A stretch of DNA of 63,841 nt, counting the filler, from Conidiobolus incongruus B7586 (taxonomy: Eukaryota): the NCBI GenBank assembly GCA_000697335.1. It is 6 parts of 6 records of this genome, joined end to end, with 100 filler letters (N's around TTAATTAATTAA, not from the genome) between each part and the next. Parts side by side here need not be neighbours in the genome. Positions count along the whole stretch, not along the records: positions 30,534 to 39,245 come from JNEM01006091.1; positions 39,346 to 45,485 come from JNEM01006093.1; 4 more parts are not named here. One strand, written 5' to 3'. Positions 9,909-61,121 of the stretch are shown one piece after another; within the stretch, counting starts at the first letter, position 1, and every line of letters starts with the position of its first letter. A model generated the notes under the pieces. The model did not search any database and had not been told where the DNA came from. It saw only the letters and a program-made list of their open reading frames with translations. A program made the position numbers and the translations under genes.

Positions 9909-9979
9909 GCCGTTGTAGTATAGTGGTAGTACGAAGCGTTGTGGCCGCTCAGACCGCGGTTCGATTCCGCGCAACGGCA
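9909..9979 (+). tRNA. tRNA-His(GTG)
   Basis: Acceptor stem GCCGTTG/CAACGGC+A, D-loop AGTGGTA, anticodon arm AGCG-TTGTGGC-CGCT, T arm CGCGG-TTCGATT-CCGCG, followed by a T-run Pol III terminator. Confidence 0.96.
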
Positions 9980-11518: not shown

Positions 11519-12525
11519 TAATATTTATTTATTTATTTATTAGGCCGTAACAACTGAATTTTAATTATATTAGACATCAATAATTGATTATTAACCATCA
11601 TTTTCTTAAATTTTAATACCTGTACAACATTCATTAAATTATCCAAATTCATTAAAAAATATTGGTTAATTTCCTTGATATTTATTAATAAAGATCTAAT
11701 AAATATTACTATCATGAGTCAATCGGTATAGTATATTTAACTGAATATAAACTTTATTAACTTTTGACTATGATCAGACTATTAATTTAAAATGATTGAA
11801 TGTCAATCCTTAAGCTTAAAATAATTAGAAAGCTTAATTAAAACTATTGATCTATTAAATATATTATTTGAGATATATACTCAAGATAAAAATAATTATT
11901 TATATTAATGCTATTTTTCGATTTAATTAACATGAATAAGGCAATTGTTAATCAATATTACGTAATAATGAGATATATTGTTTAATTATTTTCAAATCAA
12001 TATGATTTAGTTATAGATTCTCAAATTGTAAAATTAAAATTTCAAAATATTTTAAATTTGGTATTATAATACTAAAGATTATATAGTTAATATCATATTA
12101 GTAATATATTCTATTTTAATTACATCGATAATAAAATTTTATATAGTTTAATCAAAATCATTAATTGAAAAATTTAAGGTCATATAGTAAATGGTTATGA
12201 ATAATATTAATAAAAATCATGATAGCAAAAATAATATTTAAATCTGGCCATTAAATCCATTAAATATTGGCTGATGAATATATGAAGATAAAAGAATTCA
12301 ACCATATGAAATTTAGTAATATTGAAAACTACTGATTAAAAGCAAATATTTACTTCAATATTATTGTAGTAGATATAGTCTTTGACAGATGTTTACAATG
12401 ACTCAATTTTAATTCTCTATACACAATTAAGATCAGATTGATTAAGATACAGTATCTAAAAATTTACATAAATTAGATAGATAAATCGTATCATTAATAA
12501 ACTATCTGATCAAACACATCGATTT

Positions 12526-23818: not shown

Positions 23819-24747
23819 TTATCAGATGAAATTAACCTAATTTATATGATTTGTTCTAGTGTTAAGAACTTAATGAATATTAAAAAATTATCAGATGAAA
23901 ACTTTAAAGAGTTTTAATTGGTCAATTTATAATTTTAAATTTAATTTGTGGAAATTAGTATTCTTATCAGATTGACATTTTATGTGAATATTGAACCTTT
24001 AAAGAGTATTGATGTGTAATCCTTGAGTAATTGTTATAGAAAATGATTGATCTAAAAAATTGAATAATTACCTAAATTGTTATTCATCTGATAAAACTTA
24101 AAGAATTATCAGATAAATTTTTGTTAAATAGATAGAGTAATATATATAACCACTTTGAGAATGATTTGGATTCTAAATAAGAAACTAAATATATATATAT
24201 ATATATTTATAATGTTTAAAATATATTGACATTCCAATACTAGTTTTTTAATATTCATTTAGACATTCTCATATTAGGGTGTATATTTAAGTTATCATTA
24301 TAAATTTCGAAATACAAAAATAAACACTATATAACATGCAATATCCTTATTAAGATTATTTTAATCATTAATATGCTAATATTAATAATAGAAACTCAAT
24401 TCAGTTATACTAACTTTTAATAAAATTTTATGTCAAACTGCTTGACTATTAATTTGTAAAATGTCTATAAAATAAATTAATTTATAAAATGATAAGATAA
24501 TTATTATACAATCTATAAATTGCAGAATAATAGTAAATAAAATCTTTAACTATAATTTATTGAAATACTAAAACCTAATATGACCTTTAAATTTTATAAT
24601 AATAAGTTTCATGTTATATCTTCAATTTAAATCATTTTTTACTTTTGGGTATTTGATTGGAATTTTGTGAAAAATATAATATATTTATATCCAAAGATGA
24701 TTACTAATTAATATAATTTGTTATATATATATTAATTAATCTGATAA
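23819..24747. promoter_or_regulatory. Cluster of ATC(A/T)GATAA SreA-type boxes upstream of sreA
   Basis: Exact 9-mers on either strand at 23819, 23888, 23964, 24086, 24106 (TTATCAGATAA, reads both ways) and 24739. Confidence 0.7.
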
Positions 24748-25049
24748 ACTTTTTTTACTTTGTAATAATAATTTTGATATTTTCACTGATTCTTAATCTA
24801 ATATTTTATATTAATTTTAGACAATAGCTATAAATATTCATTGTTTGTTAAATATGTAATTATTTATTTTGATATATAATAAAGTATTTATTAATAATAT
24901 TGCCAATAAGAATTTATTGTTATTAGAAACTTTAATTTCCTAGTCCTATATATATTAACTTGAATTAATTTTACCTTTTAATTGGAAATTAATAATAAAA
25001 TAAAAAGGAATCATATTCCTAAAACAAATAAAAAAACATACTTAGAAAA

Positions 25050-28000
25050 GACTCTTTTGTTATTTATTTATTTATTTATACTAAAACACTATCATTATAA
25101 ATTATTACAAATTATAAATATAGTGGTAAATATTAATATAATATAGAGGAAAACTTAATATAAGAGTAATGTGATATAGAATATAGTACTATAATATGGT
25201 TATAGTGTGCAAATATAAACAAAGTTTAATTAAGCTTCAAACTAGGATGAGTACCTAATATATTAAGATTTATATTAGGTAGTACCAATATATTATAATA
25301 TTAATAAGATATAGTTTTAATTTTAAAAATAGTGAAAAGGATAAGAAATAATAAGAATTGAGAAGAAAAAGAAAAACCTAGTTTATTAAATATTTCAATA
25401 TTATTTATATAATTAATTTAACTATAAAAGTATATATTAATCATATAATTTATAGTCAATTAAATTATATGAAAGTATATATAAGAATTAAAAGAACTAG
25501 TCTTTTAATACTCCTTTAGTAAATTTCTTAAAATAGACACACTTTTTAGATTTTTATAAATAGGTATAATAAGCTAAAATATTTTTAATATTTTCTAAAG
25601 GTTCTTATATAATTACTTTAATAAAATAACCTATTTATTTTATATAGAAATAAAGCTTATTCCTAATAAATTTCAATTTAATTATATAATCAACATAGTA
25701 TTCTTTTTCTCTATCTTAATTAATAATTAAATCTAATTTTAAAGCCTTTAATTGATTAAGAAAAATATTAAAATCTTCAAAGTAAAGTTTGATTTTAGAT
25801 ATATAAAAGGTGAAGTTAATTTTTACAATTAAATATAATTCTAAAGTAATATTTTCAAAATTTAAATTAATAGATTAAATTTTATAAAGATTATAATATA
25901 ATAGCAAGTATTTTAGACTTTAGTTAAATTTAAATAAGATAGGTTTAAAGGTAAATTATTATAAATATACAAACATATTAGTTTTATATTTAAAAAGATT
26001 CTTAGATAACTTTAAATATTGTTATTTTATATCCTTTTAAATTTCTTCCAAGTTAAATTTAATAAGGGAATTAATATATTTGATATTAGATTAAAATTCA
26101 ACAACATTTAAAAGTAAGTTAATTTAAAGTTTGAAAACAATTATTAAGTTAAAATATTTATTATAATAAATGAAATAAAGGTTAAAACTTATTAATTTGT
26201 TAATAAAAGTATTGAATAAATATTTATGTTGATAGATATAAGTATCTTAATTTAATTGATTAGTGTTAATATAATCTTTAATCATTTATTTTAAGGTTTT
26301 AATAATTTTTTCAATAAGTTTATTAGTTTAATAATGATTAATAGTAGATATAGTTAGATTAATCTTAAAGGATAAAGATAATAACTTTTAAAATTAAAAG
26401 TTAAATTATATATTTTATTAAATATAGTAATTTGTGGAATTTTATAATAGGTAAAGATATTAGAGAATAATAATTATATAATATCTTTAGTTATAAAAGT
26501 TTTGAAATTAAAAATAAAATAAACATATTTAAAAAATAAATCAATTACAATTAGTAAGTTATTATAACTAGTTGTTGTTTTAAAAATTTCTATAAAATCA
26601 AGTTAAATTTGTTATTAAGTTTTATTAAAAACTTATAGGGGAATAAGTTTACTATATTTTATTTAGGTATTATATTTAATTCTTTAGTATATATCATAAG
26701 TATTAGTGTATTTCTAAATTAATTTAATTAAAAAGAGTTAGTAATTTTTATTTTAATTCTCTTATTAGTTTTTAACTAGCTTTAATATCCTTTAATAAGT
26801 AAGTTATAATAATTATTAAATATTGTTTATTAAATCTTAAGAATATTAGGGATATTTACAATTATTATAATATAGTAAGTTATTAATGATTTTAAATCTT
26901 TTAACATATTTTAATTAATTTTTTAATAGTTTAGACAGTTTTTTTTAATTAAAATAAAGAAATTGTTATTTAGTAGTATTTTTTAAAATAATTTAATAAA
27001 TTTTTTATTTTCTTTATTAATAATCATTAAGTTAATATTTATTGGGTTTTTATAATTAAAATAAAAAGATAAATATGTAAGATTTTTTAATAAAGTATTT
27101 ACCATATAATTTTATTAACCTAAGAAATATTAAATAAACAAAAAATAAGCTTAGATAATTTTAATTTATTTAATATATTTTCTTAATAAATACTTTTAAG
27201 TATTTAAGTAAATAAGTAATTTATAGTTTATAAATATTAAAAAAAGGTTGTAAAATAAGAAATGTAAATGATTTTTAATTATTTCTACTAAGGTAAAAAT
27301 TTCTTATTTATAAACTCAATATTTTAATTCAACTAGCTTTATTTTTTTTAATTAGAAGGTTATAAGCTTTAAAATAATATTTATAAAGTTAAACTTAACT
27401 TATTCTCCCTTATTTATTATTTTATCTTATAGTTAAAAGATAAAATATAAATTAAATTTAAATTAAATTAACTATCTATTAATTATAAAAGAATTAAAAT
27501 TAATAATAATAATTGTTGGTAGTTTAAGATTAAAAATAAATAAAGTAAAAACATTAGTAATATAGAAAATTAAAGCATTTATATAAAAAGTATATAGTAA
27601 GGTTTATTTAAAAAGAGAGTTTTTTCTTAAGAAATTAATTAGAGGAGTTATAAGTTTAACAAAAAAATCAATGAAATCTTTAAAGTAATTTAATAATTTA
27701 AGTGTAAATATAAGTTGATCTTTGTTTATAAGCATAGTAAAAGTTTTTATACCATTGAGTTTAGTTAGATTAATGTTAATTCTTTAAGAAGATATAATAT
27801 AACTATAGAAGGAGATAGAAGAGGTACTAAAAATATATTTTGATAATTTTAAAGGTAATTTGTATTTTTGAATAATTTATAAAATATAATTAGTATGTTA
27901 AATATATTCTTCTTTAATTTTTGAATAAATTAAAATATTATTAAGATAAATAATAATAAAGTTATTAAAAATAAAGTTAAAAAGGGAATTGATAAATTAA

Positions 28001-30433
28001 GTAAAAGTTACAAGAATATTATATAATCTAAAGTTTATAATAGTAAATTTATAATAGTTTAGTAAAGTATTGAAAGTACTTAAAAGAATAGAATTTTCTT
28101 TAACTTTAATGTTATAATAATTATTTCTAACATTTAATTTAGTAAATATAATAGATTTAAGTAGTTTATCTTTAATATCATATAGGTTTAATAATAAAGT
28201 TTTATCCTTAATAGTTTTAAAGTTTAAAATATAATTATTAATATATAATTTTTAAATTCTATTAACCTTTTGTATAAAGAAGATAAGAGATTTTTATAGT
28301 AAAGAAAAAAGTTTAATATATTTATTTTCAAGTAATTTTTAAATTTCTTTTTTTAAAATTTAATATTATTTAAGAGATAAATGATAAGTAAGCTTTAAGT
28401 ATAATTGTATATCTAAGAAAAGTATAATTTTATATTTAATATTATGTTTAAGAGGTAATCTACTTATAAATTTAAAAACATTAGCAAATTAACTTACTAT
28501 ATTGTTTAAAAAGTGGTTATTAGTTATAACTTTATTGAAATCAACAAATAAAGTACTAATAAATTAATAATAAATAAATACATATCTTTATAAATTATTA
28601 AAGTTTTTAATTAGTTTTTTACATTAGTTTTTATTTATAATAATAAAATTATTTAACATAATTATAAAACTAATATTAGGTAAAATATTTAATAATTTTA
28701 TAGTAAGGTAATATAAATTTTTTGAGATTAATTCTATTAATTTCTTTTAAATACAAAAAAAAATTTATAACCTTTTAAAGTAATACTTATTGATAAATAA
28801 ACTATGGTATTTAAATTAATTTTAACCTAGTATAAAATTATAACTAATATTATTAACTAGGAATTTAATATATTAAAAATAGTTAAAAGATAATAATAAG
28901 TATTTAAATATAATATTAGATATTTGTTCTATTAAATTATTAGCATATTTAACTATTAAGTTGCTTTTTTAAATAGGTTAAAATAGTTTTATTATAATAA
29001 AAAAAAATTAATACAACTAGAACAAATAGGGTTAATTAGAATATTAATAGGTATATTAATAAAATATCTAGTTAAAACAAGTAATAAGATAATAATTAAA
29101 GGTAAAAAATTATAAGATAAATTAATTACTAGAATATTTTTAGTTTCTAGTAGTTTAATCAGTTAAATTTCACTAATATATATAATTTAATTTGTAGAAT
29201 TATTAGTCTATTAGAATTTTTATGGATTAAATTAAAATCTACTAATTAATTATAAAAGAAATGATTTTAAAGTAATATTAATATTATTGAAGTTTAATTT
29301 ATAATTAGTAAATTAAGATTATTGAGAATTAAATAGATGTTATTTCTAAAAAAAATACTTATCAACTTTATAATTAACCTGTGTTTTTTAATAATAGTAG
29401 CAACTTCTATTTACTCTTAAATAAGCTTTAACTTCTTTATTAAAAGTTTCTTTATAAACCTTTAAAGCAGAAATATTTATTATTTAAGACTTAAATAGAT
29501 TAAAATATATTTTAAAGGATTAATTCTTAAGATAAAAAGATTAAGTTATAAAATAAAAGATATTATCAATTATAATTATTATATTATAAATATTAAAAAA
29601 AACATATTTTTAAAATATTCCCTATTAATTAATTAGAGTTTTATTTAAAAGTTTAAGCATTATAATAACTTATAGATTTATTCTTCTTTAGTGATATTTA
29701 ATATATTTAAATATATCTTATTGAATTTTTCAATTAATTACCTTATAAATATTCTTTATTTAAATTAAAAAAGCTTTTTTTTTGTAAATTAAACTTAATT
29801 TTTTAGGCAATACCTTTCTTTAAAAGACTTTTGTAATTATTTAAAGGTTTATATTTTTATAGTAGGTTATCCCCTTAAAAACTTTTAGGAATAAGTTTGT
29901 AATAAGTTAATTATTAAATATAAGTAGATTTTTCTAAAAAAAAATAGTTAATTTAAGGATATTTTTTAAATCTTTATTAAGAATTAGGTTAAGATAATTC
30001 TTTATATTTTTAAGATAGTTTTTAAGTTTATAGAGGTTTTTAAAACTATTATAAATAGTTAGTTTATCTTCAAAAATACTAAAAAAATAGTTTAATATAT
30101 TAATTATAGTAAAATAAGTAGTTTATTAGATTTAAGCTTTATAAATTATGTTTTTCTTAACTAAAAGTTATTTAATATAAGTTTTTTAAAAGGTAACAAG
30201 CTTTTAAAGATTAAAGTTTTAGTTTTATTTAGTAATTAAACTATTATTATGAAAATAATATAAAGGTATTTCTTTTTTTAGTAGTATTATAGTGTATAAT
30301 ATTAAATTAAAGTAAAATAAGATATAAATAGAATTTAAAATAGTAATAAATAAATTTGATATAGGTAATTATTAATTCCTAGTAGGTTTTTAGTAGTGTT
30401 ATTATTGTTACTATATAAGTATAGTAGTAAATA
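25050..30433 (-). mobile_element. Hypermutated Ty3/Gypsy LTR retrotransposon gag-pol relic
   Basis: Minus strand at about 27980-28260 reads IKDKTLLLNLYDIKDKLLKSIIFTKLNVRNNYYNIKVKENSILLSTFNTLLNYYKFTIINFRLYNILVTF, which is Gypsy RT (FTKLDxRxGYH..TPxGHYEFxVMxFGLxNAPATF) after transitions. I*YFLG**NYMVNTLLKN near 27080-27140 matches the RNase H end (IxYxPGxxNxxADALSR). Boundaries approximate; cut by a gap. Confidence 0.85.
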
Positions 30434-30785: not shown

Positions 30786-31720
30786 ATTTATATTATTGGA
30801 ATTTTTGTTGGAGGAGGGTCAATTAGGCATGATTAAATAATTGTTAGGCTTTGAATTAAATTAATGGGATTAATTGAAATTATTGAAATTATTAAAATTT
30901 TTGATATATCAAATTTTATTTATTCAAGGATGAGAATTTTATACAAATCGTATTATTCAACATATTATTTTTTGAATTATTTTTATGAATTTATGTAATG
31001 ATTATTCCTTTAAAATATTAATAAAAATTGGGTTTTCAAATAAATAATTTTTTCAAAATATTAATTTCAAATTAATTTTCCTTGAAAAATGAACTGGTTA
31101 GATTGAATATACCTAGTGTGTTTGAAAAGCTGTTAGAGTTCATATTTAAAAAAATCTTTATAAGGTTAATATCATTGAGTTCAAATGTTCATTCCAATAA
31201 CTATTTTATAATATTTTTATATTATCATTATTGCTACATATTTCCCAATTTAGACTTCATTAAAATTAATTTATCCAATGGTTTAAAGTCTATTTTCTTA
31301 TACTTAAATACCACTTTATCAATCATAATTATTTCACTCAAATTTTAATATTATTGTGAATGATTGTAAGTGATCAAATCATTTATCTTATTTATTATAT
31401 ACATAATACAATTAACCAGGAGAATTTCAACAAAAAATAAAATGACTAAATATTACAAAATTTTAAGTTTTATTTGTTGAACAAAAAGCATCTATTAAGA
31501 TATCATTTAATACAAAACATTCTATATCAACTATTCTTAAAAATCTCTAAATAATAACTAATGGCAAAGGATTTTCATAGTATAATTTTATAAACTGGTT
31601 TAATCAACTTAAAGTTAGGTGGTCTGATATAAAAGACTTACCTTATTTAAATTATTTTAAATTTATAACTAATTAAAATAATATTTCAAATATCACTTAT
31701 ATACTTGAGTAAAGAAACTA

Positions 31721-33035
31721 TTACCATAAAATTAAACAAATGGGAAATTTTTTAAATTTCTGATTTTTCAAACATATTATTAGTTTTAAATAAAAAAAAA
31801 TATACAAAATAAATAAGAAAATAAATAGCTTTGAATTAGATATATATATATAATAATTTTTTTGATTAAAAAATTAATTTTTTAAAATTAATTGTTTAAT
31901 TTAATTATATTTAAACTAAATAGTAACTATCAAAAGTATTTTATTTTAATATTAGTAAAACTTAACCACAAACTCTTTAAAATCATTTAAAATTTATAAG
32001 CAGCTTTTAATAATAAAGTATTATCTAAATTAACAATTTATTGCTAGGTAAATTATTTTAAAGTTAAGAGACAAACTACCTAAAACCTGTTAAAATCTAG
32101 AAAACTAATTTTAACTATTATTTTTTTAATTATTAATGAAGTAAAAAAATATATTGAAAAGTATCTTTTTATTTTAGTTAAAGAATTATCAAGATATTTT
32201 AATATTAGTTACATAAGTATTTTATATATATTAAAGTTTAAATTAAAATTAATTAATAATAATATAAAATAGGTACTTTATAATTTAATTAAAGTTTAAA
32301 AAAAAGCTAGAGTAGCTATTGCTAAACAAAACTTACTAAGGTATAGTTAGAAACTAAAACTTTTATAGTAAATTATTATAATTAATAAATTTTAGATTCT
32401 TTTGTATAATCTTTTATTAAAACATAAATTAAAGTGTTAGATTAAGTTAAATCAACCCTTTTTATAAATTCCTTTAAATAAATATTTTATTAATAAGCAA
32501 ATATTAATTGTTGTAATAAATTATAATAGCATATACTATTTTTATTTAGTTTTTAAAAGAAAATCAATTAATAATAAACTTTATATTTCTTTTTTAAATA
32601 AAATTATATCTAATTGGTATTTTTAATATAATTTAAGAAAACCTATTATTTTACATGATAATTATAAAATATATAAATCTAAAGTTGTAAAAAACTTTTT
32701 AATTAAAAATAACTAGAAAAAACTACTACATCTAGTATATTCTTTAGATTATAACTTATGTAATTATAATTGTTTTAGGCAATTAAAAAACTAGCTTACA
32801 AGAAAGAAAATTTTTACAAGAAAATTTAATTAGTTTGTGGAATATCAAATTTTAGTCTTTAATAAAAAGAACTATTTTTTAGGTGTTAGATCTTTGCTAA
32901 AAGTATAACAAAAAGTTATTAGAAATAAATAAAATCAATAATTTTATAATATATATTTATTTTTCTTTTTTATATATTAAAATGTTTACTTTTTTTCAAT
33001 TACAAAAAATTCCCATTATTTAAATTACAAAGTAA
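31721..33035 (+). mobile_element. Mariner element copy A, full length, heavily C>T/G>A mutated
   Basis: Colinear with copy B (40129-41448), e.g. KPIILHDNYKIY...LLHLVYSLDYNLCNYNCF. TIRs TTACCATAAAATTAAACAAATGGGAAATTTTT / AAAAAATTCCCATTATTTAAATTACAAAGTAA flanked by TA. Length 1315 bp. Confidence 0.88.
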
Positions 33036-33747
33036 TATAATTATATTTAAATAAAAAAATTTTGAATTTTTATTTTGATTATATATTTAAAAATTATAAT
33101 TTCAAATAATAATTATAAAATATATACTGAATTAAAGCTGCAATAAGTTTTTATATAAAAACTACAATATTTAATATATTTATTATATTATAACATATTT
33201 ATTTATATTTGATCTATTTAATAAAAAATATATTTATAAATAAAAACTTTTAAAATTAATATTAATAAATTTATATATTATCAATTTTAATCTTTAATAA
33301 AAAAAATTAATTTTTTAGATATTACAAGTTTATTAAAAGTATAGAGTTATTAATAATAAAAGGAGGATTTATTTCAATATATATATTTATATTAGTTTAT
33401 TATATATAAAAATTAATTTAAATTTGATTTTATAAATAGGTTATTATTTAATTTCTAGAGTAAAAATTAAAGAATTGAAAAAATAACAAAATGATTACAA
33501 ATTATAATGTGTAATATTAAAAATTAAGAAAAATGATTGAAATATTATACAATATATAGATTGTGCAAAGTCAAAAACACACCTTGAAAATAGTAATAAG
33601 TGGAATATTTAATATATAATGTTATGATAAATACAGATCTAAATGTCTAACTATTGAAAATATATAACATTCAAATTCCAAATCAATTTAAGTCATAATT
33701 GATCAATGTTAATGAAGCTAGATATTGTTGTAAATATAGGCCAATAT

Positions 33748-34067
33748 TGTGGTTACATAAATGGTAACCCGCACGACCAACTTCGTCTCGCGGTCTATTA
33801 CCTTATGGAGCATTAACCCCAAAAGGCCTATCACACCAGTTCAAGGTCTCATTCTTCTAGCAGCCCAATACACTTCTTTACACTACCTACAGCCGTCAAT
33901 TGGTCTATAAAAGATATATTATCATCATCACTTCTGTTCTCCTGTGAAGCCCATTAAACCCTTAACAAACGCCAATAAAATACCCTAACCCAAACTACCA
34001 AATAGGCCAATAACAAGCCGTTTCCTCGTCTATTATTAAGGATCTACTAGCGATCGGTAGAACCATA
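33748..34067 (+). mobile_element. Probable solo LTR (320 bp)
   Basis: GC-richer island with inverted ends TGTGGTT...AACCATA, ATAT 4-bp direct repeats on both sides, internal TATAAAA and downstream AATAAA. Confidence 0.65.
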
Positions 34068-35593
34068 ATATGTATTAAAGTGAAAATTTTCAATTAAATA
34101 TCTAATTACAAGTTCAAAATTTATTATATTAATTAATTTATAAACAGTTAATATAATAGGTAAATAAAATTATTCTTCTTGAATTCAATACTAACACCAA
34201 ATATAATTGTAATTATTAACTCAATATTCTCATTGTAACAATAATATATTATAAAAATTGACAGTGTTTATAAGAAAATAGAGTTATTATTACTTAATAA
34301 TATCCAACTAGCTCACATTTTAAGAATACTAAAGCAGTGTGATAGTTACTTTTCAATTAAAATACCCTAATACAAATATGATATGTTTGTTTTTACCCTC
34401 AATTTTTATTAACTATAATATTTTTTTGACTAAAAGTTTAATAATGCGAATTTCTCCTATTTTACAAATTTATATTAACCCTTAATTTGATATTTATTAT
34501 TTAATAAATATTTTAAGTTGAATTAATTAGAGTAGAGTTGAAAATTAAAAAATAGTTAATTTTTTTAACTATAATAAGGATTTGACAGGTAATAGTTGAT
34601 AGAGTATTTGTTATAATATTTAATAATTGATAACATTTAGATTTTTCTTGTGTTTGTAATTTAATTTTTTGACTATGTATATTAAGAACAAGTTCTGTGA
34701 TAATGAATTACTAGATTGATCGTTTAATTAACCCTTAAACATCAATTGATTAAAAATTTTGAATAGTTTCGGAAATCTTTTACTTTTAGTAGATAGTATT
34801 ATTTAAAATAAAGTGTAGTTTAACATAATAAATTTCGTTAGGAACTTCACAATCAAAATTTTTTGATTTCATTAAACTCAGATTGGCAAATATTTTTACA
34901 GTCTGAGTTTGGATCAGATGTTTAAAAAAAATCTCTCGATTTATGTTTTCATAAATTCCGCATTACTCAAATTTCACCCGATTTTAATTCAACCAATAGG
35001 CTAAATGGATTCATAAACGAGCGTTTTGATTAGAAATTTTTATTCCTTTCTTGTTTTGGTAACTTCGGGCTTTAGAGTTTTTCTACGCCTACTTATAAAA
35101 GAAATATCGATATTTGACACTAGTGAAAAAAGGATTGTAGACAAATTTAAAATTAAAAAAAATTAAGAAATCGATTGGTATTCTATTTAGGTAACATTAG
35201 AGTGAGCTAAGTCAAACCACTCTACCAACATTACTAAATATTCAACCAATCAAATACACTAATTGAATATTGAATTACGGCTTATTGATTCATTAATCAA
35301 AAGTAAAATTCTTGGGTCAAATTAATCATTGAATGATTAAGAAAATCTAATTTTTTTTTGCATTTTTATGAATGTAATTTTTATATAAATATATTTACAT
35401 CATTCTCATTGATGTAATCCCTCTTTTCAAGTCTTAGTTTCGTTTAATAGTCAATTCTTATTGATAGTCGTCCCTTTATAATCCCTTTAAGTCTAATTGA
35501 TTATTCAATATTTTTATCAATCCTTCCTATTTATTTGGACCCTTTCCTCACTTCGTCTCTTGTGCACACTTATTGAACTATTAGTTAGTACTT

Positions 35594-37300
35594 ATGGACC
35601 AATATACCATTTGTAAACAGGTGAATAGTGGTGCTTTTGGTCAAGTGTATAAAGCGATTGATAATAAAACTAACCAAGTGGTAATTTATTTTAAGCTATT
35701 TAATTTTATTTAATATTAACTTATAAAATTTAGGTTGCTATTAAAAAGATACATAAAAAATTATTCGATTTTAATCCCAAAGCTAATAATAGAGAAATTA
35801 AGGTATGTATTAAGAATTTCACTCTGTTAATAATGTATTAATATTATATTATAATAGGCTTTAAAGAATTTAAAACATAACAATTTAATTCAATGTCATA
35901 ATTTAATTACCAAAACCAATTGCATTTATTTTGTTTTTGAATATATGGAAGAGAATTTATTAGAATATTTAAATAATTTTAAAACCAACCTAATTCCATT
36001 AAACTTTATTCAGTATATTATTAAAGAAGTATGCCAAGGTTTAAATTATATGCACCAAAGCGGTTACTTTCATAGAGATTTAAAACCCGAGAATATACTG
36101 TTAAAAGGAAAAAGTATTAAAATTGCCGATTTTGGACTATGTAGAGAAGTTGATCTAAATAAAAAATTGACTAAGTATGTTAGTACAAGGTGGTATCGTG
36201 CTCCTGAGGTACTTCTGGGTTGTAAAGATTATGGCTGTCCCATTGATATTTGGGCTTTGGGGTGTATTATTACTGAACTAGTTTTGAGGAAACCTCTCTT
36301 ACCAGGTGATAATGAAATTGATCAGTTATACAAAATATGCTCAGTAATCGGTAGGCCTGATTGCGCAAATTCTCTTGGCGGATCTTGGGATTTGGGTGTG
36401 CAAATGGGCCTTGTCATGGGATATCGTTTCCCTTCAGTTGGTGATCCAACCCTGATTTATCAACTACAAATGTCGTATCCTCACATTACCAATGAATTGA
36501 TCCATCTAATCATTTCCACTCTCCAACTCGATCCACTCAAGCGACCTAAAGCTTGCGAATTACTTAGTCATCCCTGCCTAAACAATTTCCCTGTTCCCAT
36601 ATATGATCTGAAAACACCTGATATGAATCAAGTGCTTGATACCTCACTTCCTGACTTGCCCAATCATTCCCCTATGTCTAACAGCTTTATGGACAGCGAT
36701 CGATATAAATTATCACCAGCTATTTCCCATCCCGGCAGCTTCCAAAAAAGACAAATCAAGAGACGTCCTAACTGCGTATTTGACGTTTATAACCCAGACA
36801 GGACTCCTTCCAACTCCAGTTCCATTGTTGGAACTCCGAACTCCTCTACTCGATCACCTCAACTACGACGACTCTCTAATATTGATTCTTCCCAATTCGC
36901 ACATGCTAGACGCTTGTCAACTCAACTAGACTGGAAATTCACTGGCTGTCAAAGCGAAAAATTAAATCGAGTATCTCTTTACCATACGGATAAAATAGGC
37001 ACCCGAAGTCTACCTCGAAGTTTCCAGCCCAATCGATTTGATATGGGAATAAATCCGAAACCACCCAGTTCACTGGCCACAATGTTCCAGGACGTTATAC
37101 CATCTCAAGAGAAGGTTAAGTCAGTACAAATGGATAAATTTGATAGTTTGGCGCAAGAACTAATCCATCTCATGGAAGAAAAAATTGATTCAATCGGGTC
37201 GGAACCACTGTATGACCATTCCCTAGACATCAACGCATCTTCCAAAGACTCGAATTTCTTGCCTAACGGGTTAGGCTTGGAACTTTTCAAAGTATTGTAA
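35594..37300 (+). CDS. Ime2/MAK/ICK (RCK) family Ser/Thr kinase, 3 exons
   Basis: MDQYTICKQVNSGAFGQVY..|VAIKK..|..FVFEYMEENL, YFHRDLKPENIL, KIADFGLCRE, TKYVSTRWYRAPEVLL, PGDNEIDQLYKIC. Introns 35681-35733 and 35803-35858 approximately. Confidence 0.9.
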
Positions 37301-38706
37301 ATTAATATACAACGAACCCCAACACGTAAGTGTTTAACGCGAATTAAAAGATCATGAAATTAACGTTTATTAGGAACTCATCTCTTCCCAATTAGTCAAA
37401 AGCTATTGTAATTATATTTTTTACCAAAATTTACCCTTACCCAAATGTAAATTACACACTGTTATATTACTATATCTGAGTGTTATTAATCAATAACCGA
37501 ATTTTTTTCTATGTTGCTTAATAAACTCGTATATAAAAAATAAACATTATTTGTTGAGTAATAATTCAAGTTAATTCATGCAAATATTCTTGGGATTTAA
37601 TTTGAATCAGCTTTCGTCAGACTCAATTTTTGCAGCTCTATCTAATCTGGCGTAACTTATGGATAATATTTAAATTTATTTTTAGATATTGAATGAATGC
37701 AGATTCATGTCTAGATTATTAATAATTAACAATTTAAATTTATTATAATATGTATTATTTTATTTTATTGATAATAATATAATCTCTTAGGATATATAAA
37801 TAAGATTAAAGTGATTTAATTTTGAGTTTTTTAGATCTAGGCTAAAAATTTTAATTAAAATTAATTTCAATATACCATTAATACAATTAAAAGAATGAAA
37901 ACAAAAATTCTCAAAATCTTATGATAAATTAACAATCATTAACCTCCTAATTTCTCTTAAAATTTCAATTAATAATCAACTAGAAAACTAAAAAGATATG
38001 CAGATCTTTATTTTGTTAGACAATTTAATTATAAAATATGAAATCATTAAAGTTGAATTGAGATCATTCAACATTTTTCTTGGTAATTAATTTTAAAATT
38101 CTATTTTTGTGAATTTTAAAAAAAATTCTTTAACATGTGTTAAATATAATTATTTGGATATTATTTTTTTCTTTCATATTTTAATATAATTTAATCATGA
38201 TTATAATTTTAAATTGTTAATATTGATATTAAACAATTTTATTATATACATTTATAAATTGATCTAATTTAATAATCAATACCATTTCCCTAAAGTCTCA
38301 GATTTCTAATATAGTAAATACTCACACTCCTAATACATATTAGTGTAAATCCGTATAATTTACCAATCTCATCAATCCAAAGTACATAAATTTAAAATTA
38401 TTTAATTGACAAAAATAACTAAAATAAGACGTTTGTCAATAATGTTCCAGTTATTAACCACATGGTTGTAATGCCCCTTGGTGATATAATTATGCAGTTT
38501 TTTTAATTTGGATTCAATATGAAATTTGGTTAATGATTATAGGGTTATTCTTTTTGGTATTTAGTAATAATGTTAAGTATTATATATAAAATACTAATCA
38601 AACATAATATTTAGTGAAATTATAATTTAAAATATTTATATTTTATTTTATATATAATCTTTTTTTTAAAAATTTTAACTAAGAAATTATGAAAATAGAA
38701 AATATT

Positions 38707-38740
<34 letters not shown>

Positions 38741-39345
38741 TAATAATTTTGATAATTTTTAATTTTTTAATTAATTTAAAATATTATATTCATAACTATC
38801 AATAATTAATTCAATTTATATCATCCAATTATTGAATTAAATATTGATATTTTTTGGTGGTTATTTATATATAAATTAATCAATATAAGAATATAATTAA
38901 TATTAGTAATATATAATAAATTTATATTGATAGTTATTATATTACTAAGCTATTTATTAGAGTTTAAATTATTACAAATAATAAAGCAAATTTAAAACAT
39001 GGAATATTATTATAACTTTAATTTTCCAATATTATTATACTTATAAAAATTATTTAGCAAATTATTGATAATATGAAAAATTAAAAAATTTAATAACTTA
39101 AGTAATTTTACCATCTTTGTTTTATTTCCAAAATATATTTTATAAACTAATATTAATCAAAATTATCTAAGAATAATTAATAAAAGGAATAATATATAAA
39201 TTAAATTTATTTAATATATTAAAGTTGAATTATGAATATAAGTTTNNNNNNNNNNNNNNNNNNNNNNNNNNNNNNNNNNNNNNNNNNNNTTAATTAATTA
39301 ANNNNNNNNNNNNNNNNNNNNNNNNNNNNNNNNNNNNNNNNNNNN

Positions 39346-39776
39346 CAAAAATACTTTTAATTAAAATTTTTATTATAATTTAAAAAGATCTATTATATTA
39401 TATAATAATTATAAAATATATAAAGCTAAAGTTATAAAAAACTTTCTAATTAAAAATAACTAGAAAATTACTATATCTAGTATATTCTTTAAACTATAAC
39501 TTATGTGATTATAATTGTTTTAGTTAATTAAAAAACTAGTTTACAAAAAAGAAAATTTTTATAGAAAATTTAATTAGTTTATAAAATATCAAATTTCAGT
39601 TTTTAATAAAGAAAACTATTTTTTAAATATTAGAACTTTATTAAAAATATAGCAAAAAGTCATTAAAAATAAAAAAATTAATAATTTTATATTATATATT
39701 TATCATTATAATTGATATATTAAATTATTTATTTTTTTATTTGCAAAAAATTCCCATAATTTGAATTATAAAGTAA
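39346..39776 (+). mobile_element. Mariner copy C, 3' part after gap, same subfamily as copy A
   Basis: Aligns to the 3' third of copies A and B (tatattctttaaactataacttatgtgattataattgtttt). Ends in the copy-A type TIR AAAAAATTCCCATAATTTGAATTATAAAGTAA-TA. Confidence 0.82.
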
Positions 39777-40128
39777 TATATTAAAAATATTAATTTTTTA
39801 TAATTATCATTAATTAAAATTCTTTTTACAATACTAACTTTATATTTATTGAAACTATAATATAAGATAATAAGTATATTTAGTTTATATTAAAAATATT
39901 ATTTAAAATATATTATTATGATTATTTATAATAATTAATTTTTACTTATAAAAAGAATATTTATTTTTAAATTTATATAACAGACTGTTTTAGTTTTTCC
40001 TAATATTTTGATTTATGTTTTAATAAAGAATTATATAAAATTATATATGGTTTATTAATTATAATAAAAATATAATTAAAATTTTAGTATTTAATTATAT
40101 AAAGTTTAATTTAATTATAATTATTTTA

Positions 40129-41448
40129 TTAGTATAGAAATTAAGAAATGGCAAATTTTCTAATTTCTGATCTTTCAAACATATTATACATTTTGAAAGA
40201 TTATATATATATAAAATATATAGGAAAATAAATATTTTCAAACTATATATATATATTCAATTTTAATTATTTTTTTTATTAAAATATTTTCATTTTAAAA
40301 TTTACACTTAAATTTAATCATGCTTAAACCAGATTGTGATTATCAAAAGGCTTTTATTTTTGTATCTTTATAACTTAACCATAAACCCTCTAAAATCATC
40401 TAAAACTTGCAAACAGCTTATAGAGATGGTGCTTTATCTAAAACTACCATATATTGCTGGATTTGTGATTTTAAAGCTAGAAGGGACACTATTTAAAATT
40501 TATCAAAATCTAAAAGACTAATTTCTACTGTCACTCTTTCACTTACTAATAAAGTAAAAAAATATATTAAGAAATACCCTTTTATTTCTGCTAGAGAACT
40601 ATCAAAGCAATTTAATATTAATTATACAAGCATGTTATATTTACTTAAGTTTAAACTTGGATTAATTAATAAAAATGTAAAATGGATACTTTATAATTTA
40701 ACAGAAGCCTAAAAGAAAACTAGAGTAGCTATAGCTAAACTAAACTTATTAAGGTATAACTAAAAACAAAGGTTTTTACAGCAAATACTTACAATTGATG
40801 AATCTTGGATTCCTTTATATAATCCTTTATATAAAAATAAAACAAGATGTTGGGTTAAGCTAAATCAATCCCCTCTACAAATTCCAATGAATAAGCACTT
40901 TGAATATAAGCAAATGTTAATTGTTGTAATAGATTATAATGGTATATGGTCTTCTTATTTAATACCTCAAGGAAAATCAATTAATAGTAAGTTATATATT
41001 ACTTTTTTAAATAAAACAATTTCTAAATGGTGTTCTCAATATAAATTAAAGACACCTATTATTTTGCATGATAATTGCAAAATACATAAAGCTAAAGCTG
41101 TAAAAGATTTTTTATATAAAAAAAATTGGAGGGAGTTACCACATCCAGTATATTCACCTGATTATAATCCATGTGATTATAATTGTTTTGGACAATTAAA
41201 AAAACAGCTTGCAGGAAAAAAAATTCCTCCAAACAAATTAAATTGGTTTGTGAAACATCAAATTTCAGTCTTTAATAAAAAGAACTGTTTTTTAGGTATT
41301 AGAAGCTTACCAAAAGTATAGAAAAGAGTTATTAATAATAAAGGAGGCTATTAATTTTATATTATTCATTAAATTTTATATATTATTTATTAATTTATTT
41401 GTTTAATTTTAATTTTAAAATTGTGCCATTACTTAATTTCTGCACTAA
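40129..41448 (+). mobile_element. Mariner (DD34D) element copy B, full length, least mutated
   Basis: TIRs TTAGTATAGAAATTAAGAAATGGCAAATTTT / AAAATTGTGCCATTACTTAATTTCTGCACTAA with TA target duplication. Length 1320 bp. Confidence 0.93.
40320..41354 (+). pseudogene. Mariner transposase pseudogene, 345 codons, no net frameshift, multiple nonsense codons
   Basis: HTH region (DGALSKTTIYCW), ILTIDESW, ILHDNCKIH, HPVYSPDYNPCDY with 34 residues between the 2nd and 3rd Asp. Stops at positions consistent with CAA>TAA and TGG>TAG. Confidence 0.9.
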
Positions 41449-42321
41449 TAATTTTTTAAAACTTTTATTAAATTATTAATTATATATATTATATTATATT
41501 AAATAATTTGAGTTTAACTTTAAAATTTATAATATATTTTATAAACAATATTCAGAATATTATATAGTTTTTTAATCAAAATAAATAATATATATTTTAT
41601 ATTAATAATAATCAAAAAAATAATATTTAAAATTAGATTTTTAAAGTATAATTAGGTTTAAATAATTTTTCTTTTAACTTTAAATTAATTTAACTAATAA
41701 TAAATATTTAATCTAAATAAAATATTTTTTAAATATTATTTGTAAAATGTAAATGATTTTTAAAAATTTATCATCAACTTTTATTAATACTAAAATATAT
41801 AAATGTGGATGATATCTAATTAATATTGATATAATTAATTAAATAATATATTTTTAAAACGAATTTACTAATAAAAAATTATAAATAAAATTTAGAATTA
41901 TTAATATTTCAATTGATCATATATATAAATATATATTTAAAAAATTAAAAAATAAAAAATTTATATCTTTAATTTTAAAATTATATTATAGCTTATTTTT
42001 TTGTAAATTTTGTATATTTAAATTATAATAAACAATATATACTCAAGTTATAATGATAATTTATATATTTTGAAATTTTTCATTTTATAAATAATATGAT
42101 ATATATATTAATTGATTATAATAAAATCAAATTATTTATCGAATATTAAATAAAGGATCTTAAATATATTCATATACCAAAAAATATATAAAAATAATTA
42201 AAATATTAATTAAAAATATAGATTAATATAATTTTTTCTAATATAATTTATATAATATATAACTATTTAAATAAAATGAATAATCTTTTAAAATTTTTTC
42301 CAGCTAGTAGAAAAAAAATTG

Positions 42322-54824: not shown

Positions 54825-57800
54825 GTGCGTGATATTGCTACTGTTTGTACAGCTGTTGCCTGTGGTGATCTTTCTCAAAAAGTGACTGTTTCTGTTCAGG
54901 GTGAAATTCTAGAACTGAAAGTAACCATCAATACCATGGTGGATCAACTCCGAACCTTTGCTGCTGAAGTAACACGTGTGGCTCGTGAAGTAGGTACAGA
55001 AGGTAAACTTGGTGCTCAAGCCGAAGTAGAAGGAGTTGGTGGAACATGGAAAATTTTAACAGATAGTGTAAACACTATGGCCTCTAATCTCACAGCTCAA
55101 GTCAGAGATATTGCAAATGTAAGTAAAGCAGTAGCCACGGGAGATCTTTCTAAAAAGATTACGGTGAATGTCAAAGGTGAAATCCTGGATTTGAAGAATA
55201 CTATTAATACGATGGTTGACCAATTAAGAACTTTTGCTACAGAAGTGACCAGAGTTTCTCTTGAAGTAGGAACAGAAGGAAAGCTCGGAGGTCAAGCTGT
55301 TGTTAAAGATGTTGGTGGTACATGGAAGGATCTTACAGATAATGTCAACTTGATGGCTGCTAATCTTACTGGGCAAGTACGTTCTATTGCTGAAGTCACA
55401 ACAGCTGTAGCAGATGGTGACTTGTCTAAAAAAATCACAGTCGATGTCAAAGGAGAAATTCATTTATTGAAAACTACCGTCAATTCTATGGTTGATCGAC
55501 TTAGGACATTTGCTGCTGAGGTTACTCGCGTTGCTCGCGAAGTTGGTACCGAGGGTAAATTAGGAGCTCAAGCTCAAGTTAAAGACGTTGGTGGTACTTG
55601 GAAAGAACTAACCGACAATGTCAACACTATGGCTGCTAATTTGACTGCTCAAGTCAGGGATATTGCAAATGTCAGTAAAGCAGTAGCTCGAGGCGACTTA
55701 TCCAAGAAGATCACCGTTGATGTCAAGGGCGAAATTTTGGAATTGAAGAACACAATCAATACCATGGTAGATCAATTGCGTACTTTTGCAACTGAAGTTA
55801 GTCGTGTATCCCTTGAAGTCGGAACCGAAGGCAAATTGGGCGGTCAAGCGGTGGTTAAAGACATTGGCGGAACTTGGAAAGATCTTACAGACAATGTAAA
55901 TATTATGGCTGCCAATCTTACGGGACAAGTACGTTCGATTGCTGCTGTAACTACCGCTGTTGCTTGTGGTGATTTGTCGCGCAAAATTACTGTTGATGTG
56001 AAAGGTGAAATTTTGGAACTCAAAAATACTGTCAATTCTATGGTAGACCAACTGCGTACATTTGCTGCTGAGGTTACACGCGTTGCTCGCAAAGTCGGAA
56101 CAGAGGGTAAACTTGGTGTACAAGCACATGTGAAAGACGTCGGTGGCACCTGGAAAGAATTAACTGACAATGTGAACACGATGGCTTCTAATCTTACTCT
56201 ACAGGTCCGTGACATTGCCAATGTATGTAAAGCTGTAGCATGTGGTGATTTATCTAAAAAGATTACCGTAAGCGTCGAAGGTGAAATTTTGGACCTTAAG
56301 AACACTATCAATACCATGGTCGACCAATTAAGAATGTTTGCTTCTGAAGTGACCAGAGTTGCTCGAGAGGTAGGAACAGAAGGTAAACTTGGCGTTCAAG
56401 CCCAAGTCACGGATGTAGGTGGTACTTGGAAGGAAATTACTTACAATGTAAATACTATGGCTGCCAATCTTACTTCACAAGTAAGAGCTTTTGCCCAAAT
56501 TTCTGCCGCTGCTACTGATGGTGATTTTACTCGCTTTATTACCGTTGAAGCTTCAGGTGAAATGGATTCGCTTAAAACTAAGATCAATCAAATGGTATAC
56601 AACTTGAGAGAAAGTATCCAAAAGAATACGATGGCTCGTGAAGCTGCTGAATTAGCCAATAGAGCTAAATCCGAATTCTTGGCCAATATGTCACACGAAA
56701 TTAGAACCCCAATGAATGGTATTATTGGAATGACCGCTTTAACGCTTGAAACTGAGTTAACAAGGCAACAAAGAGAAAATCTTATGATTGTATCAACCAT
56801 GGCTAACTCGCTTTTGACAATTATTGATGATATTTTGGATATTTCTAAGATTGAAGCCAACAAACTAGTGATGGAACAAATTCCTTTCTCATTGAGATCG
56901 TCAGTATTCAGTGTCTTGAAGACTTTGGCTGTTAAGGCCAATCAAAAGAAACTAGATCTAATATATAATTTCGAAGGCACCATTCCTGATCAACTAATTG
57001 GTGATCCTCTCAGATTAAGACAGGTTATTACCAATCTCATTGGTAACGCTGTGAAATTTACAACCAAGGGGCGTGTAATCTTAACCGCTCAGACCAAAGA
57101 ATTTATTGATGACGAAGTTGTGTTGTTATTCTGTGTTAGCGATACTGGTATTGGTATCGATGCAGAGAAGATTGATCTTATTTTCGATACCTTCCAACAA
57201 GCCGATGGTTCTACCACTCGTAAATATGGTGGTACAGGTTTAGGCTTATCAATTTCTAAACGACTGGTTGTTCTGATGGGTGGTGAACTTTGGGTACATA
57301 GTGTGTTTGGTGAAGGATCCCAGTTCTACTTCACCGTGAAATGTAAGATGTCAAACATCAGCTTGGAACAGGCTATGGCTCGTTTATCCCCCTATGCTAC
57401 ACATTGTGTCACCATTCTCAACTCTCAAAAGTCACCCGAAATGTATGACCTTACCAAAATGCTAGAAACTCTCAAACTTCAATATATTCTCGTTGAGACC
57501 GTTGAACAAGCTGGTGAAATCTCCTCTAGGGCAATTTCCAAGAGCACTCACCCTGATTTATTGATTTGCGATAACTTGGACGCAATTGAGAAATTACGAG
57601 AAGTTCCAAGCTTAAGATATGTTCCAATCGTTCTGATGGGTCATAACATGCCTGAACTTGTGATGAAAGTATCAATTGAATTGGGCATATCATCATACAT
57701 CAATCTACCTGCCTCCTTCTCTGACCTTGTCAACGCCCTTCACACTGCCATGGAAAATTATGCTGTCTTACCCGCAGATCCCTCTCGCACTCTTCGTACT

Positions 57801-59018: not shown

Positions 59019-61121
59019 TTAATTAAAGTATTAATAATACATTGTAATTCTCATATAATATTTTTCAATTTTTTCCATATCAATTGTATTTTCACACAAC
59101 CAAATTTTTAAACTTTATATTTTTAGTCTACTACCTTAACATTAGAACTTTTACTCTTTCAAATTTAATACCTTTGACATATTCATATTTTAATTTTTTC
59201 AACATTTCTATTCAGATTATTTTTGATAATATTTTAATTTTAAGCTTACTTTTAATATTTATGTTATACAACTAATATGAGTGATTGTAAAAAGTTCCTA
59301 TTTTTTCACAATGTTTTAAATTTAATAGATCAAAATAAAGAGTTAGGTTACCAATACTGATCATTAATAAACAAATATGTTGTTCATATAAGAATAAAAT
59401 TTTTAATTATATATTTTCACATTGTCACTGTTAATTTGTATACTATATATTAAAACTAAAAATTGAAAAATTAAAACCTTTATGATAATTTGATTCCTTC
59501 CAAAACATGGTAGTATCTTACTCAGAATCACACATATCTCAAATTAAAAATGATCATTTCCCTACTAAAATTATCAAATAATTACTTACATATTGTAGAT
59601 AATTATTTTTTATTCAAATAATTATCAAGTTTAATAAAAAATATAAGTTAGGGTATAAACCTTATAAAAAGGAATCATTATTAAAATTGATAATAAAAAA
59701 CTATCATTAATTAAAATAAATTTTTCTATTATCAGTATATTTATGAAAAGAGAGTAAACTCATCCATTGGAAGGAATCCTTTAGAAGGATACAAAATATT
59801 AGGCAGACAGCCAATAACATTAATAAAATTTAAAAGAAAGAGTAAAGTTGAGTAGTTTAAATATTTCAAACTTATTAAAAAGTAGCCTTTAATATGGAAT
59901 TCCTAGAATATCATAAGTTCTTGGGGCTAGGAGTTAAAGTATTCCCATCATTAACATTTTATCGACATAGGTTTAAAAATTATTGGATAAATCAAGTTTT
60001 TCACAATTAGGAAATTTCAATGATGAAATAAATATCAAAAGTGACTATAGAAATATATATTTAAACAATAATAAGAATTAGAATACCACTATATGAGAAT
60101 ATGTATTTAAAGTATGTTAAAATGACAAAGAAATGATAAGACACATTAATGATATTCAATTCAAAAAATTTAAGAGTATTCCTTTAATAAATCAATAGTT
60201 TTAAAATAAATATCCACGTTAACATCGTTCATATTTCGAATAATTCTACCATTTAATATTATAGTTCCCATATTAAAATGAATTACATTTATGTTTGAAA
60301 AAGGATGATTATTCTAAATTATAAATAAATTAATTATATATGTAATATTAAATTATTATAGCTTACCTGATAAATTTCAATTTCACCCAATATTTGATAT
60401 AAATCATTTAGTTTTAAAGGTAATTGGTTACAATATTTTAAGTTGACTATTAAATTTAAATTTTCTAAATTAATTACACCAATATGTGTTGAATAATCTA
60501 TTTCTTTTAATCTATGAAATATTAAATACTCAATAAATATAACTATAAATTATTGAATTACTTTCCAAGTATTCTAACCGATTTTTTAATATATTGGTTA
60601 GGATTTTCTTGAAGGTCTGTTAATTTTAAAAATTTATAGGGTTGAAACTCAATTTGGTTCATTTTTTATTAGTTAATATCAAAAAATACTTAAAACAATA
60701 CTGTTAAATTAAAAATATAAACGTATATTTAATTAATCAAATTATGGGATCTTGTTATAAAATTCAACTTTTAATAACTATAAACCCACAAATATTGGGC
60801 CTACTCAAATCTGTCCCACTTTTTCTAATTTTTGATTTGACCAATTTTTTCTAAAACTAAAATTAGTCACTCAGCCAAAAAAATTGAAAAAATTCGTCAA
60901 AAAAAAAATAGCTTACCAATTTTTTTGATTTATAAAACCAATTAGTTTTCTCCCATAAAATATAAAAATAAGGTTAAAGGTTTATCATTGCTATTTACAA
61001 CAGTGTGACTTTATTTTATATTAATCAAGTGATTTTTATTTTGTGCTGAATACCACATAAATTTATTAGCAAGAATATTGCTTTTAAGCTTTATCTTTTT
61101 TTTTCTCTTATATCATCTATT

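What the first reader, a model, noticed from the sequence alone, without database searches (positions are those of the whole stretch)
31721..41448. Three mariner copies form a graded mutation series that exposes the mutator's context preference
Seen: copy B ccacatccagtatattcacctgattataatcca...ttttggacaa...cagcttgcagga; copy A ctacatctagtatattctttagattataactta...ttttaggcaa...tagcttacaaga; copy C ctatatctagtatattctttaaactataactta...ttttagttaa...tagtttacaaaa. Changes are mostly C>T or G>A on both strands, many at CpA/TpG, with CpG>TpG in the HTH (Arg>Cys). By eye, surviving cytosines in the relics are mainly CpT and CAA. Inference: repeated rounds of a mutator broader than CpG deamination, possibly with a different context rule from Neurospora CpA RIP.
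Basis: partly seen in the sequence, partly recalled or inferred. Interest (0 to 1): 0.75.

Follow-up and report, generated by a model that had tools for sequence, protein, structure and literature searches.

The report
Transposon C-to-T decay in Conidiobolus fungus
Dead transposons in this early-diverging fungus have no CG sites left and have lost half or more of their other cytosines to C-to-T change, fastest before A, while neighbouring genes keep theirs, a scar likely left by DNA methylases acting on transposons rather than by the classical repeat-induced point mutation of ascomycetes.

Summary
GC falls from 22% (B) to 14% (A), 11% (C) and 8% (D, E), and none has a CpG. From B to A, 128 of 253 C/G sites went to T/A against 18 transversions, equally on both strands and at all codon positions. 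Contigs of the family show the same bias at about 80% of B's C/G sites. But the copies are not one series: A and C form a different subfamily from B. The context rule is broad: CpG absent, CpA 63%, CpT 55%, CpC 36%; CCA becomes CTA 12 times and TCA never. CAA is not protected, and many surviving CpT are products. A 5.3-kb Ty3 relic passes stringent RIP indices; genes do not. The best reading is methylation-linked mutation by DNMT1 plus a Dim-2-like enzyme (both in C. coronatus; no RID reported), as in Zymoseptoria. True RIP is not excluded. A kingdom-wide survey scored C. coronatus as no-RIP, so alignment-level evidence here seems new, though the mechanism is untested.

The parts
31721..33035 (+). 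Mariner copy A, full length, A/C subfamily, GC 14%, 0 CpG, many in-frame stops
   Evidence: DDE_3 still weakly seen, E=0.007
40129..41448 (+). Mariner copy B, full length, minority subfamily, GC 22%, 0 CpG; TA-flanked; inserted into older copy E
   Evidence: 12 of 13 transversion rows shown side with A
40320..41354 (+). Transposase reading frame of B, 344 codons, 6 internal stops, D160-D251-D286 (DD34D)
   Evidence: Mos1 3hos E=9e-26; Pfam DDE_3 and Transposase_1
39347..39776 (+). Mariner copy C, 3' third only (cut by an assembly gap), A/C subfamily, GC 11%, 0 CpG
33046..33468 (+). Older mariner fragment D (3' third) abutting A, GC 8.5%, about 14-15% transversions and several indels against A and B
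   Evidence: nhmmer E=3e-12; score 98-106 vs shuffled max 25-27
41454..41859 (-). Older mariner copy E, 5' part (element positions ~160-585), GC 7.6%
   Evidence: score 149 vs shuffled max 28
39908..40125 (-). Older mariner copy E, continuation (element positions ~600-820) on the other side of B
   Evidence: score 84-98 vs shuffled max 24-27; nhmmer E=2e-4
25100..30430 (-). Ty3/gypsy retrotransposon relic, GC 14%, 0 CpG, CpA:CpT 159:494; 10 consecutive stringent RIP-index windows
   Evidence: Ty3 RT 4ol8 E=2e-23 with one 2-residue gap in 257 aa
61700..63841 (.). Unidentified AT-rich block with the same signature (GC 13.5%, 0 CpG, CpA:CpT 68:173)
   Evidence: no Pfam match in six frames of 62378-63841
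35570..37300 (+). Host protein kinase gene between the two mariner clusters; keeps its CpG (control)
   Evidence: Pkinase E=1e-50; 9-18 CpG per 500 bp in 36001-37500

Best explanation
Transposon remains in this Conidiobolus-like genome have no CpG left and have lost half or more of their other cytosines to C-to-T change on both strands, most often before A, likely because DNA methylases mark them and the marked cytosines mutate over long periods. Shown: the changes are confined to transposon blocks, are transition-specific at C/G, ignore codon position, show no strand clustering, and end near 8% GC in the oldest copies. Inferred: a DNMT1-type enzyme methylates CpG, which explains its complete loss. 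A Dim-2-like enzyme would add non-CpG methylation or direct mutation with a CpA lean, as shown for Zymoseptoria Dim2 in mitosis. Targeting would be by heterochromatin, not by pairing of duplicates.
For: C/G transitions 128 of 253 vs C/G transversions 18 of 253, A/T transversions 52 of 771, A/T transitions 41 of 771. On C's own branch 21 of 42 C/G sites went to T/A, 0 of 42 by transversion, against 8 transversions at 289 A/T sites. Family-wide, 111 of 139 C and 101 of 125 G of B vary to T/A against 60 transversion places in 1127 (run X1). Four CpG-free tracts of 2.8-6.2 kb (16-29 CpG expected each) all lie over relics. CpA:CpT 297:807 in four relics vs 1214:964 in five unique non-coding stretches, p=1e-56. 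CpA is the fastest non-CpG context in 4 of 4 three-rate fits. No strand runs. C. coronatus has DNMT1 (KXN74494) and KXN73869, sister to the Dim-2 clade at 99.9/97 (PMC10538959 supplements). RID homologues were found only in Dikarya and one chytrid in a survey that covers Conidiobolus (PMC5751038). Dim2 gives CA>TA in mitosis in Zymoseptoria (PMC8016269).
Against: No methylation data and no methyltransferase gene from this genome were seen; no whole genome is held. The enzyme evidence is from a relative (94% identical in one enzyme). The same paper's table lists Dim2 as not detected in C. coronatus, and KXN73869's domain starts at residue 49, so it may be partial or lack the chromatin-reading domains. 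In Zymoseptoria over 98% of Dim2-linked changes were at CA, CG was spared and CT was almost unmethylated, whereas here CpT is hit at 55% and CpG is gone. 5mC is described as scarce in Zoopagomycota (PMC11258239). Several rounds of RIP would also erase strand asymmetry.
Confidence: 0.58

Rival explanations
1. A true RIP-like defence: duplicated DNA is recognised by homology in the sexual cycle and mutated in bursts by a non-RID methyltransferase, on top of ordinary CpG decay.
For: 15 of 126 windows pass stringent RIP indices, all over relics, 10 in a row over the Ty3 relic (thresholds from PMC7882544). Neighbouring B and C differ twofold in GC. C. coronatus has 0 repeats of 1 kb or more at 95-100% identity and 555 at 80-95% (PMC12543289 supplement 3). 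Index-based RIP was reported in Zoophthora radicans (PMC11105155).
Against: No strand clustering or strand bias (68/121 vs 60/114; 9 vs 12 on C's branch). A tandem array of six 92-bp units at 61119-61673 has 1 difference in all, though it may be recent or misassembled. RID is not reported outside Dikarya apart from a bacterial-type gene in one chytrid. C. coronatus was scored no_rip. The lack of identical long repeats may be assembly collapse.
Confidence: 0.22
2. DNMT1 alone: heavy CpG methylation with off-target CpA methylation and passive deamination over long times; no second enzyme.
For: CpG loss is complete while the non-CpG gradient is shallow. B has lost CpG yet keeps CpA at observed/expected 1.0. 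DNMT1 is the only DNA methylase in the table for C. coronatus.
Against: Non-CpG loss is large (51% of C/G sites) and continues where no CpG remains. Basidiomycetes with only DNMT1-class enzymes show CpG-only signatures (PMC4352252).
Confidence: 0.13
3. Neutral decay in an AT-biased genome plus ordinary CpG deamination; no non-CpG mutator.
For: Unique non-coding DNA is already 17-25% GC. The pairwise CpA vs CpT test is weak (p=0.24 or 0.043). The oldest copies show little CpA deficit (E 20:24).
Against: Relics invert the CpA:CpT ratio of unique DNA (odds ratio 0.29). A CpG-only model is rejected from both start compositions (deviance 196 and 253 vs 44 and 49). CCA goes to CTA 12 times, to TCA 0 times. 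C>T outruns C>A/C>G sevenfold.
Confidence: 0.05

Closest known systems
Dim2-dependent mitotic CA>TA mutation of transposons in Zymoseptoria tritici (PMC8016269; abstract and passages read)
   Same: Repeat-confined C>T transitions with CpA on top; a Dim-2-clade gene in the lineage; no RID needed.
   Different: There over 98% of changes are at CA and CG is spared. Here CpG is absent, and CpT and CpC are hit at 55% and 36%. Different phylum; not shown experimentally here.
RIP of Neurospora crassa and other Pezizomycotina (described in PMC3318451, PMC12543289, PMC4352252; passages read)
   Same: C>T on both strands, frames kept almost free of indels, Trp>TAG and Gln>TAA stops, positive product and substrate indices, genes spared.
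   Different: Complete CpG loss, flat non-CpG gradient, no strand clustering, no RID reported in the genus; dependence on homology and on sex untested.
CpG-dominant plus CpA signature of Tuber melanosporum transposons (PMC4352252, passages read)
   Same: Two-tier signature, CpG first and CpA second.
   Different: Tuber has RID and Dim-2 and is an ascomycete; there all CpA signatures went with a RID gene.
Index-based RIP signal in Zoophthora radicans and other Entomophthoraceae (PMC11105155; section 6 and passages read)
   Same: Same order (Entomophthorales); positive composite indices in repeats.
   Different: Only a lenient index, no copy alignments or contexts; the passages read give no value for Conidiobolus; the candidate orthogroup OG0001715 lists no Conidiobolus protein.
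Mos1/mariner DD34D transposons
   Same: TA target, ~31-bp inverted repeats, ~1.3 kb, 345-aa transposase, DD34D, YSPD motif.
   Different: Only 24-39% identical to the 150 listed library proteins; all copies in the window are dead.

Membership tests
mariner (DD34D) transposon | Catalytic D,D(34)D triad | tested here: met
   D160, D251, D286 invariant in 12 of 12 aligned proteins
mariner (DD34D) transposon | Short terminal inverted repeats and TA target duplication | tested here: met
   A and B are TA-flanked with degenerate ~31-bp repeats
RIP (Neurospora type) | C:G>T:A transitions far above other changes in repeats | tested here: met
   128 vs 18 of 253 C/G sites; 21 vs 0 of 42 on C's branch
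RIP (Neurospora type) | Confined to repeats, single-copy genes spared | tested here: met
   15 of 126 windows positive, all on relics; coding set CpG observed/expected 0.75, CpA 1.15
RIP (Neurospora type) | Strong CpA preference over all other contexts | tested here: not met
   CpG is fully gone; CpA 63% vs CpT 55% pairwise; fitted CpA/CpT 2.0-2.5 from coding or B starts
RIP (Neurospora type) | Strand-coordinated bursts (recalled feature, no call) | tested here: inconclusive
   No runs (57 vs 58.9, sd 4.6), but several rounds would hide them
RIP (Neurospora type) | RID/Masc1 methyltransferase in the genome | not testable with these tools
   No genome held; not reported in Conidiobolus
RIP (Neurospora type) | Triggered by homology (over ~400 bp, over 80% identity) in the sexual cycle | not testable with these tools
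   Only a hint against: a 555-bp tandem array with 1 difference
Dim2-type methylation-linked mutation | Dim-2-clade gene present | tested here: inconclusive
   Relative only: KXN73869 sister to the Dim-2 clade, 99.9/97, but listed as not detected in the same paper's table
Dim2-type methylation-linked mutation | Non-CG 5mC on transposons and C>T in mitosis | not testable with these tools
   Needs a methylome and mutation-accumulation lines
Dim2-type methylation-linked mutation | CpA the leading non-CpG context | tested here: met
   Top in 4 of 4 three-rate fits; CCA>CTA 12, TCA 0; 16 of 27 transition rows shown

The most novel reading that the evidence does not exclude
Conidiobolus has a homology-directed, RID-independent RIP-like defence run by a divergent Dim-2-clade methyltransferase with its own broad rule (CpG, then CpA and pyrimidine-CpT, then the rest). 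Repeat-directed mutagenesis would then predate Dikarya, and could help explain why Conidiobolus kept a ~40-Mb genome while related Entomophthoraceae grew past 500 Mb.
Probability: 0.2. Interest if true: 0.85.

Novelty: new variant of a known kind. Interest (0 to 1): 0.52.

Why it matters
A 2025 survey of 1,239 genomes concluded that RIP-like signatures are confined to ascomycetes and scored C. coronatus as no_rip. Its test needs over twofold k-mer enrichment, which an already AT-rich genome can hardly reach (my inference). Copy alignments here show a strong non-CpG, transposon-confined mutator in Zoopagomycota. If a Dim-2-like enzyme is responsible, the mitotic mutator seen in Zymoseptoria is ancient and may be the forerunner of RIP. 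A culturable fungus with only two candidate methylases makes that testable.

Tried and rejected
Whole-genome tabulation: no genome is held. Word-indexed protein search with B's read-through found nothing at E<=1e-20 among 935 candidates; the full HMMER search found 5,795 relatives, none above 39% identity among the 150 listed, too distant to polarise bases. Metagenome scan: 37 pattern matches, 0 relatives. First model fit stalled at its start values and was discarded; one search replaces it. The order of CpT and CpC is not stable: CpT above CpC in the pairwise count and two fits, reversed in two others. A 5' pyrimidine effect at CpT (37/51 vs 21/55, p=0.0005, post hoc) is not reproduced in the Ty3 survivors (TCT 172 vs 180 expected). 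CAA protection: none pairwise, mild in the Ty3 relic (91 vs 74 expected). A's changes are nearly nested in C's (40 shared, 3 A only, 21 C only, 21 neither); this is not proof of a series, since subfamily differences and hot sites give the same. Other AT-rich flanks were tested for mariner remains: of 20 region-strand pairs, only the three for D and E scored above shuffles. Two papers were not held (Bewick 2019; Gladyshev 2017). Four look-ups of earlier findings returned nothing.
Full report
Host. The window is fungal: group III histidine kinase, GATA factor, SLA2-like and SNF2 genes. One enzyme is 94% identical to Conidiobolus coronatus, 74% to Neoconidiobolus and 70% to Entomophthora, so the host is a Conidiobolus-like member of Entomophthorales (Zoopagomycota); the species was not determined. 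No whole genome is held.

Anatomy. The quoted strings are all present. B (40129-41448) and A (31721-33035) are full-length, TA-flanked elements with about 31-bp inverted repeats; C (39347-39776) is the 3' third, cut by a gap. B's frame of 344 codons has six internal stops, matches Mos1 at E=9e-26 and carries D160, D251 and D286, a DD34D triad. Two older copies were missed. D (33046-33468) abuts A. E lies on the minus strand and is split by B: 41859-41454, then 40125-39908. B is therefore younger than E.

Not one series. In 434 three-way columns A and C share 32 transversions and 46 transitions against B, while C has 8 and A 7 private transversions. A and C share an inverted repeat that differs from B's. 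B/A transversions fall 23, 10 and 38 on codon positions 1, 2 and 3 (p=1e-4), the mark of selection while the subfamilies were active. C/G>T/A changes fall 45/100, 60/101 and 27/56 (p=0.11), the mark of change after inactivation. In contigs of four runs of one sample, probably the assembly's own and so not independent, A carries the alternative letter or its transition partner at 12 of the 13 transversion rows shown. B is thus an imperfect stand-in for A's ancestor, which dilutes context estimates.

Size of the effect. From B to A, 128 of 253 C/G sites show the transition and 18 a transversion; of 771 A/T sites, 41 show a transition and 52 a transversion; there is no indel in 1024 columns. On C's branch alone, 21 of 42 C/G sites went to T/A and none by transversion, against 8 transversions at 289 A/T sites. 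The family is large: 9,067-12,165 contigs per run were laid on 1.2 kb of B, 619 of 9,298 at 99% or more in X1. In X1, 111 C and 101 G places vary to T and A, of 139 and 125, against 60 transversion places in 1127 (threshold 1%). GC is 22% in B, 14% in A, 11% in C and 8% in D and E.

Context. No copy has a CpG. Whether it was lost before or after insertion cannot be told: no CA/TG split site exists between A and B, and none of the 11 T>C or A>G rows shown restores a CpG. For the rest, B to A gives CpA 55/87, CpT 58/106 and CpC 15/42 (chi-square p=0.013; CpA vs CpC p=0.005; CpA vs CpT p=0.24). The cleanest case is CCA/TGG: of 21, 12 became CTA, 2 TTA, 0 TCA, 2 stayed and 5 changed otherwise. Six of B's eight Trp codons are TAG in A and none is TGA. 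This creates CpT: 19 of A's 101 coding CpT survivors were CpC in B. CAA is not spared (26/42 vs 29/45). CpT after a pyrimidine is hit more (37/51 vs 21/55, post hoc p=0.0005), but the Ty3 survivors do not repeat this. Of the 27 transition rows shown from contigs, 16 are CpA (8 CCA), 8 CpT and 3 CpC; these are the best-supported 40 of 362 rows, not a random sample. Strands are hit equally (68/121, 60/114) and without runs.

Beyond the mariners. 25100-30430 is a Ty3/gypsy relic (Ty3 RT E=2e-23) with 0 CpG and CpA:CpT 159:494; 61700-63841 looks the same. The four longest CpG-free tracts, 2.8-6.2 kb, cover these blocks and the two mariner clusters. Four relics give CpA:CpT 297:807, five unique non-coding stretches 1214:964 (p=1e-56). 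With the stringent thresholds of PMC7882544 (passages), 15 of 126 windows are RIP-positive: 10 on the Ty3 relic, 2 on A, 3 on the right block, none on B or genes. A simulation from host coding DNA fits the Ty3 relic with deviance 341 (no context), 196 (CpG only), 44 (CpG plus CpA) and 32 (free rates: CpA 1.67, CpT 0.72, CpC 0.36). From non-coding DNA the rates are 1.26, 0.01 and 0.13; for the right block 1.47, 0.73 and 0.31; for A from B 0.77, 0.31 and 0.71. CpA leads each time; the order of CpT and CpC and the sizes depend on the assumed start. Residuals show extra loss of CAG/CTG (4 vs 13) and CCA (12 vs 27).

Mechanism. Shown: transposon-confined, transition-specific, strand-symmetric C>T loss with CpG absent and CpA leading. 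Inferred: methylation. In supplements of PMC10538959 (file 1 part 1 and search rows, file 7 part 1) C. coronatus has DNMT1 and a second enzyme, KXN73869, sister to the Dim-2 clade at 99.9/97; the table calls Dim2 not detected and leaves the DNMT4 (RID-type) cell empty. PMC5751038 (passages) found RID homologues only in Dikarya and one chytrid. PMC8016269 (abstract, passages) shows Dim2 driving CA>TA in mitosis, though far more strictly than here. DNMT1 for CpG and a Dim-2-like enzyme for the rest is the simplest fit (0.58). Homology-directed RIP-like bursts (0.22) remain possible: B and C are neighbours with very different loads, and C. coronatus lacks long near-identical repeats. Against it are the missing strand runs and a near-perfect 555-bp tandem array. 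DNMT1 alone (0.13) and neutral drift (0.05) fit worse.

Novelty. Nine literature searches (open-access library only) listed no alignment-level report of such a mutator in Conidiobolus. PMC11105155 (section 6, passages; supplements listed, not read) reports index-based RIP in Zoophthora and calls it caveated. PMC12543289 (abstract, sections 8-9, passages, supplement rows) finds RIP-like signatures only in ascomycetes and scores C. coronatus no_rip. PMC4352252, PMC3318451, PMC7862722, PMC13297926, PMC11258239 and PMC12387763 were seen as passages only. Bewick 2019, which surveyed fungal methylases and methylomes, was not held and may bear on the enzyme claim, as may the eLife paper's unread RIP tables. 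Unchecked notes of this scan describe similar decay in Dimargaris and Endogonales (63 findings hold the words, 8 shown), so the phenomenon may be common in early-diverging fungi; they are leads, not support.

Verdict. New variant of a known kind; interest 0.52.

Noticed in passing
window 25100-30430: The Ty3 relic's coding strand keeps 481 C but only 263 G (ratio 1.8; a symmetric simulation from host genes gives 1.2), and 27 of 29 stops in the RT frame are TAA. It may reflect the element's original make-up or a strand-biased episode; the mariners show no such skew.
   Followed up: partly
window 61119-61673: Six tandem 92-bp units with one difference in all, no CpG, at the edge of a mutated block: recent amplification of already decayed DNA or an assembly artefact.
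   Followed up: partly
window 5786-6194 and 31264-31677: An older dispersed repeat, 66% identical in inverted orientation, GC 19-20%, with 2 and 0 CpG but no CpA deficit; family unknown.
   Followed up: partly
window 54831-56563: HAMP repeats of the histidine kinase (276-bp period, 70-75% identical) keep their CpG; too diverged to test homology targeting.
   Followed up: no
window 24308-25100: The CpG-free tract runs about 800 bp beyond the recognisable end of the Ty3 relic without CpA loss: possible spreading of CpG methylation or an unrecognised LTR.
   Followed up: no
window 38500-39245: AT-rich (11% GC), CpG-free stretch left of copy C with normal CpA:CpT (37:32) and no mariner match; origin unknown.
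   Followed up: partly
window 30434, 39246, 45486, 54724, 62278: Five gaps of 44 N, a 12-base all-frame-stop linker and 44 N: contig joins, so adjacency across them is not certain.
   Followed up: no
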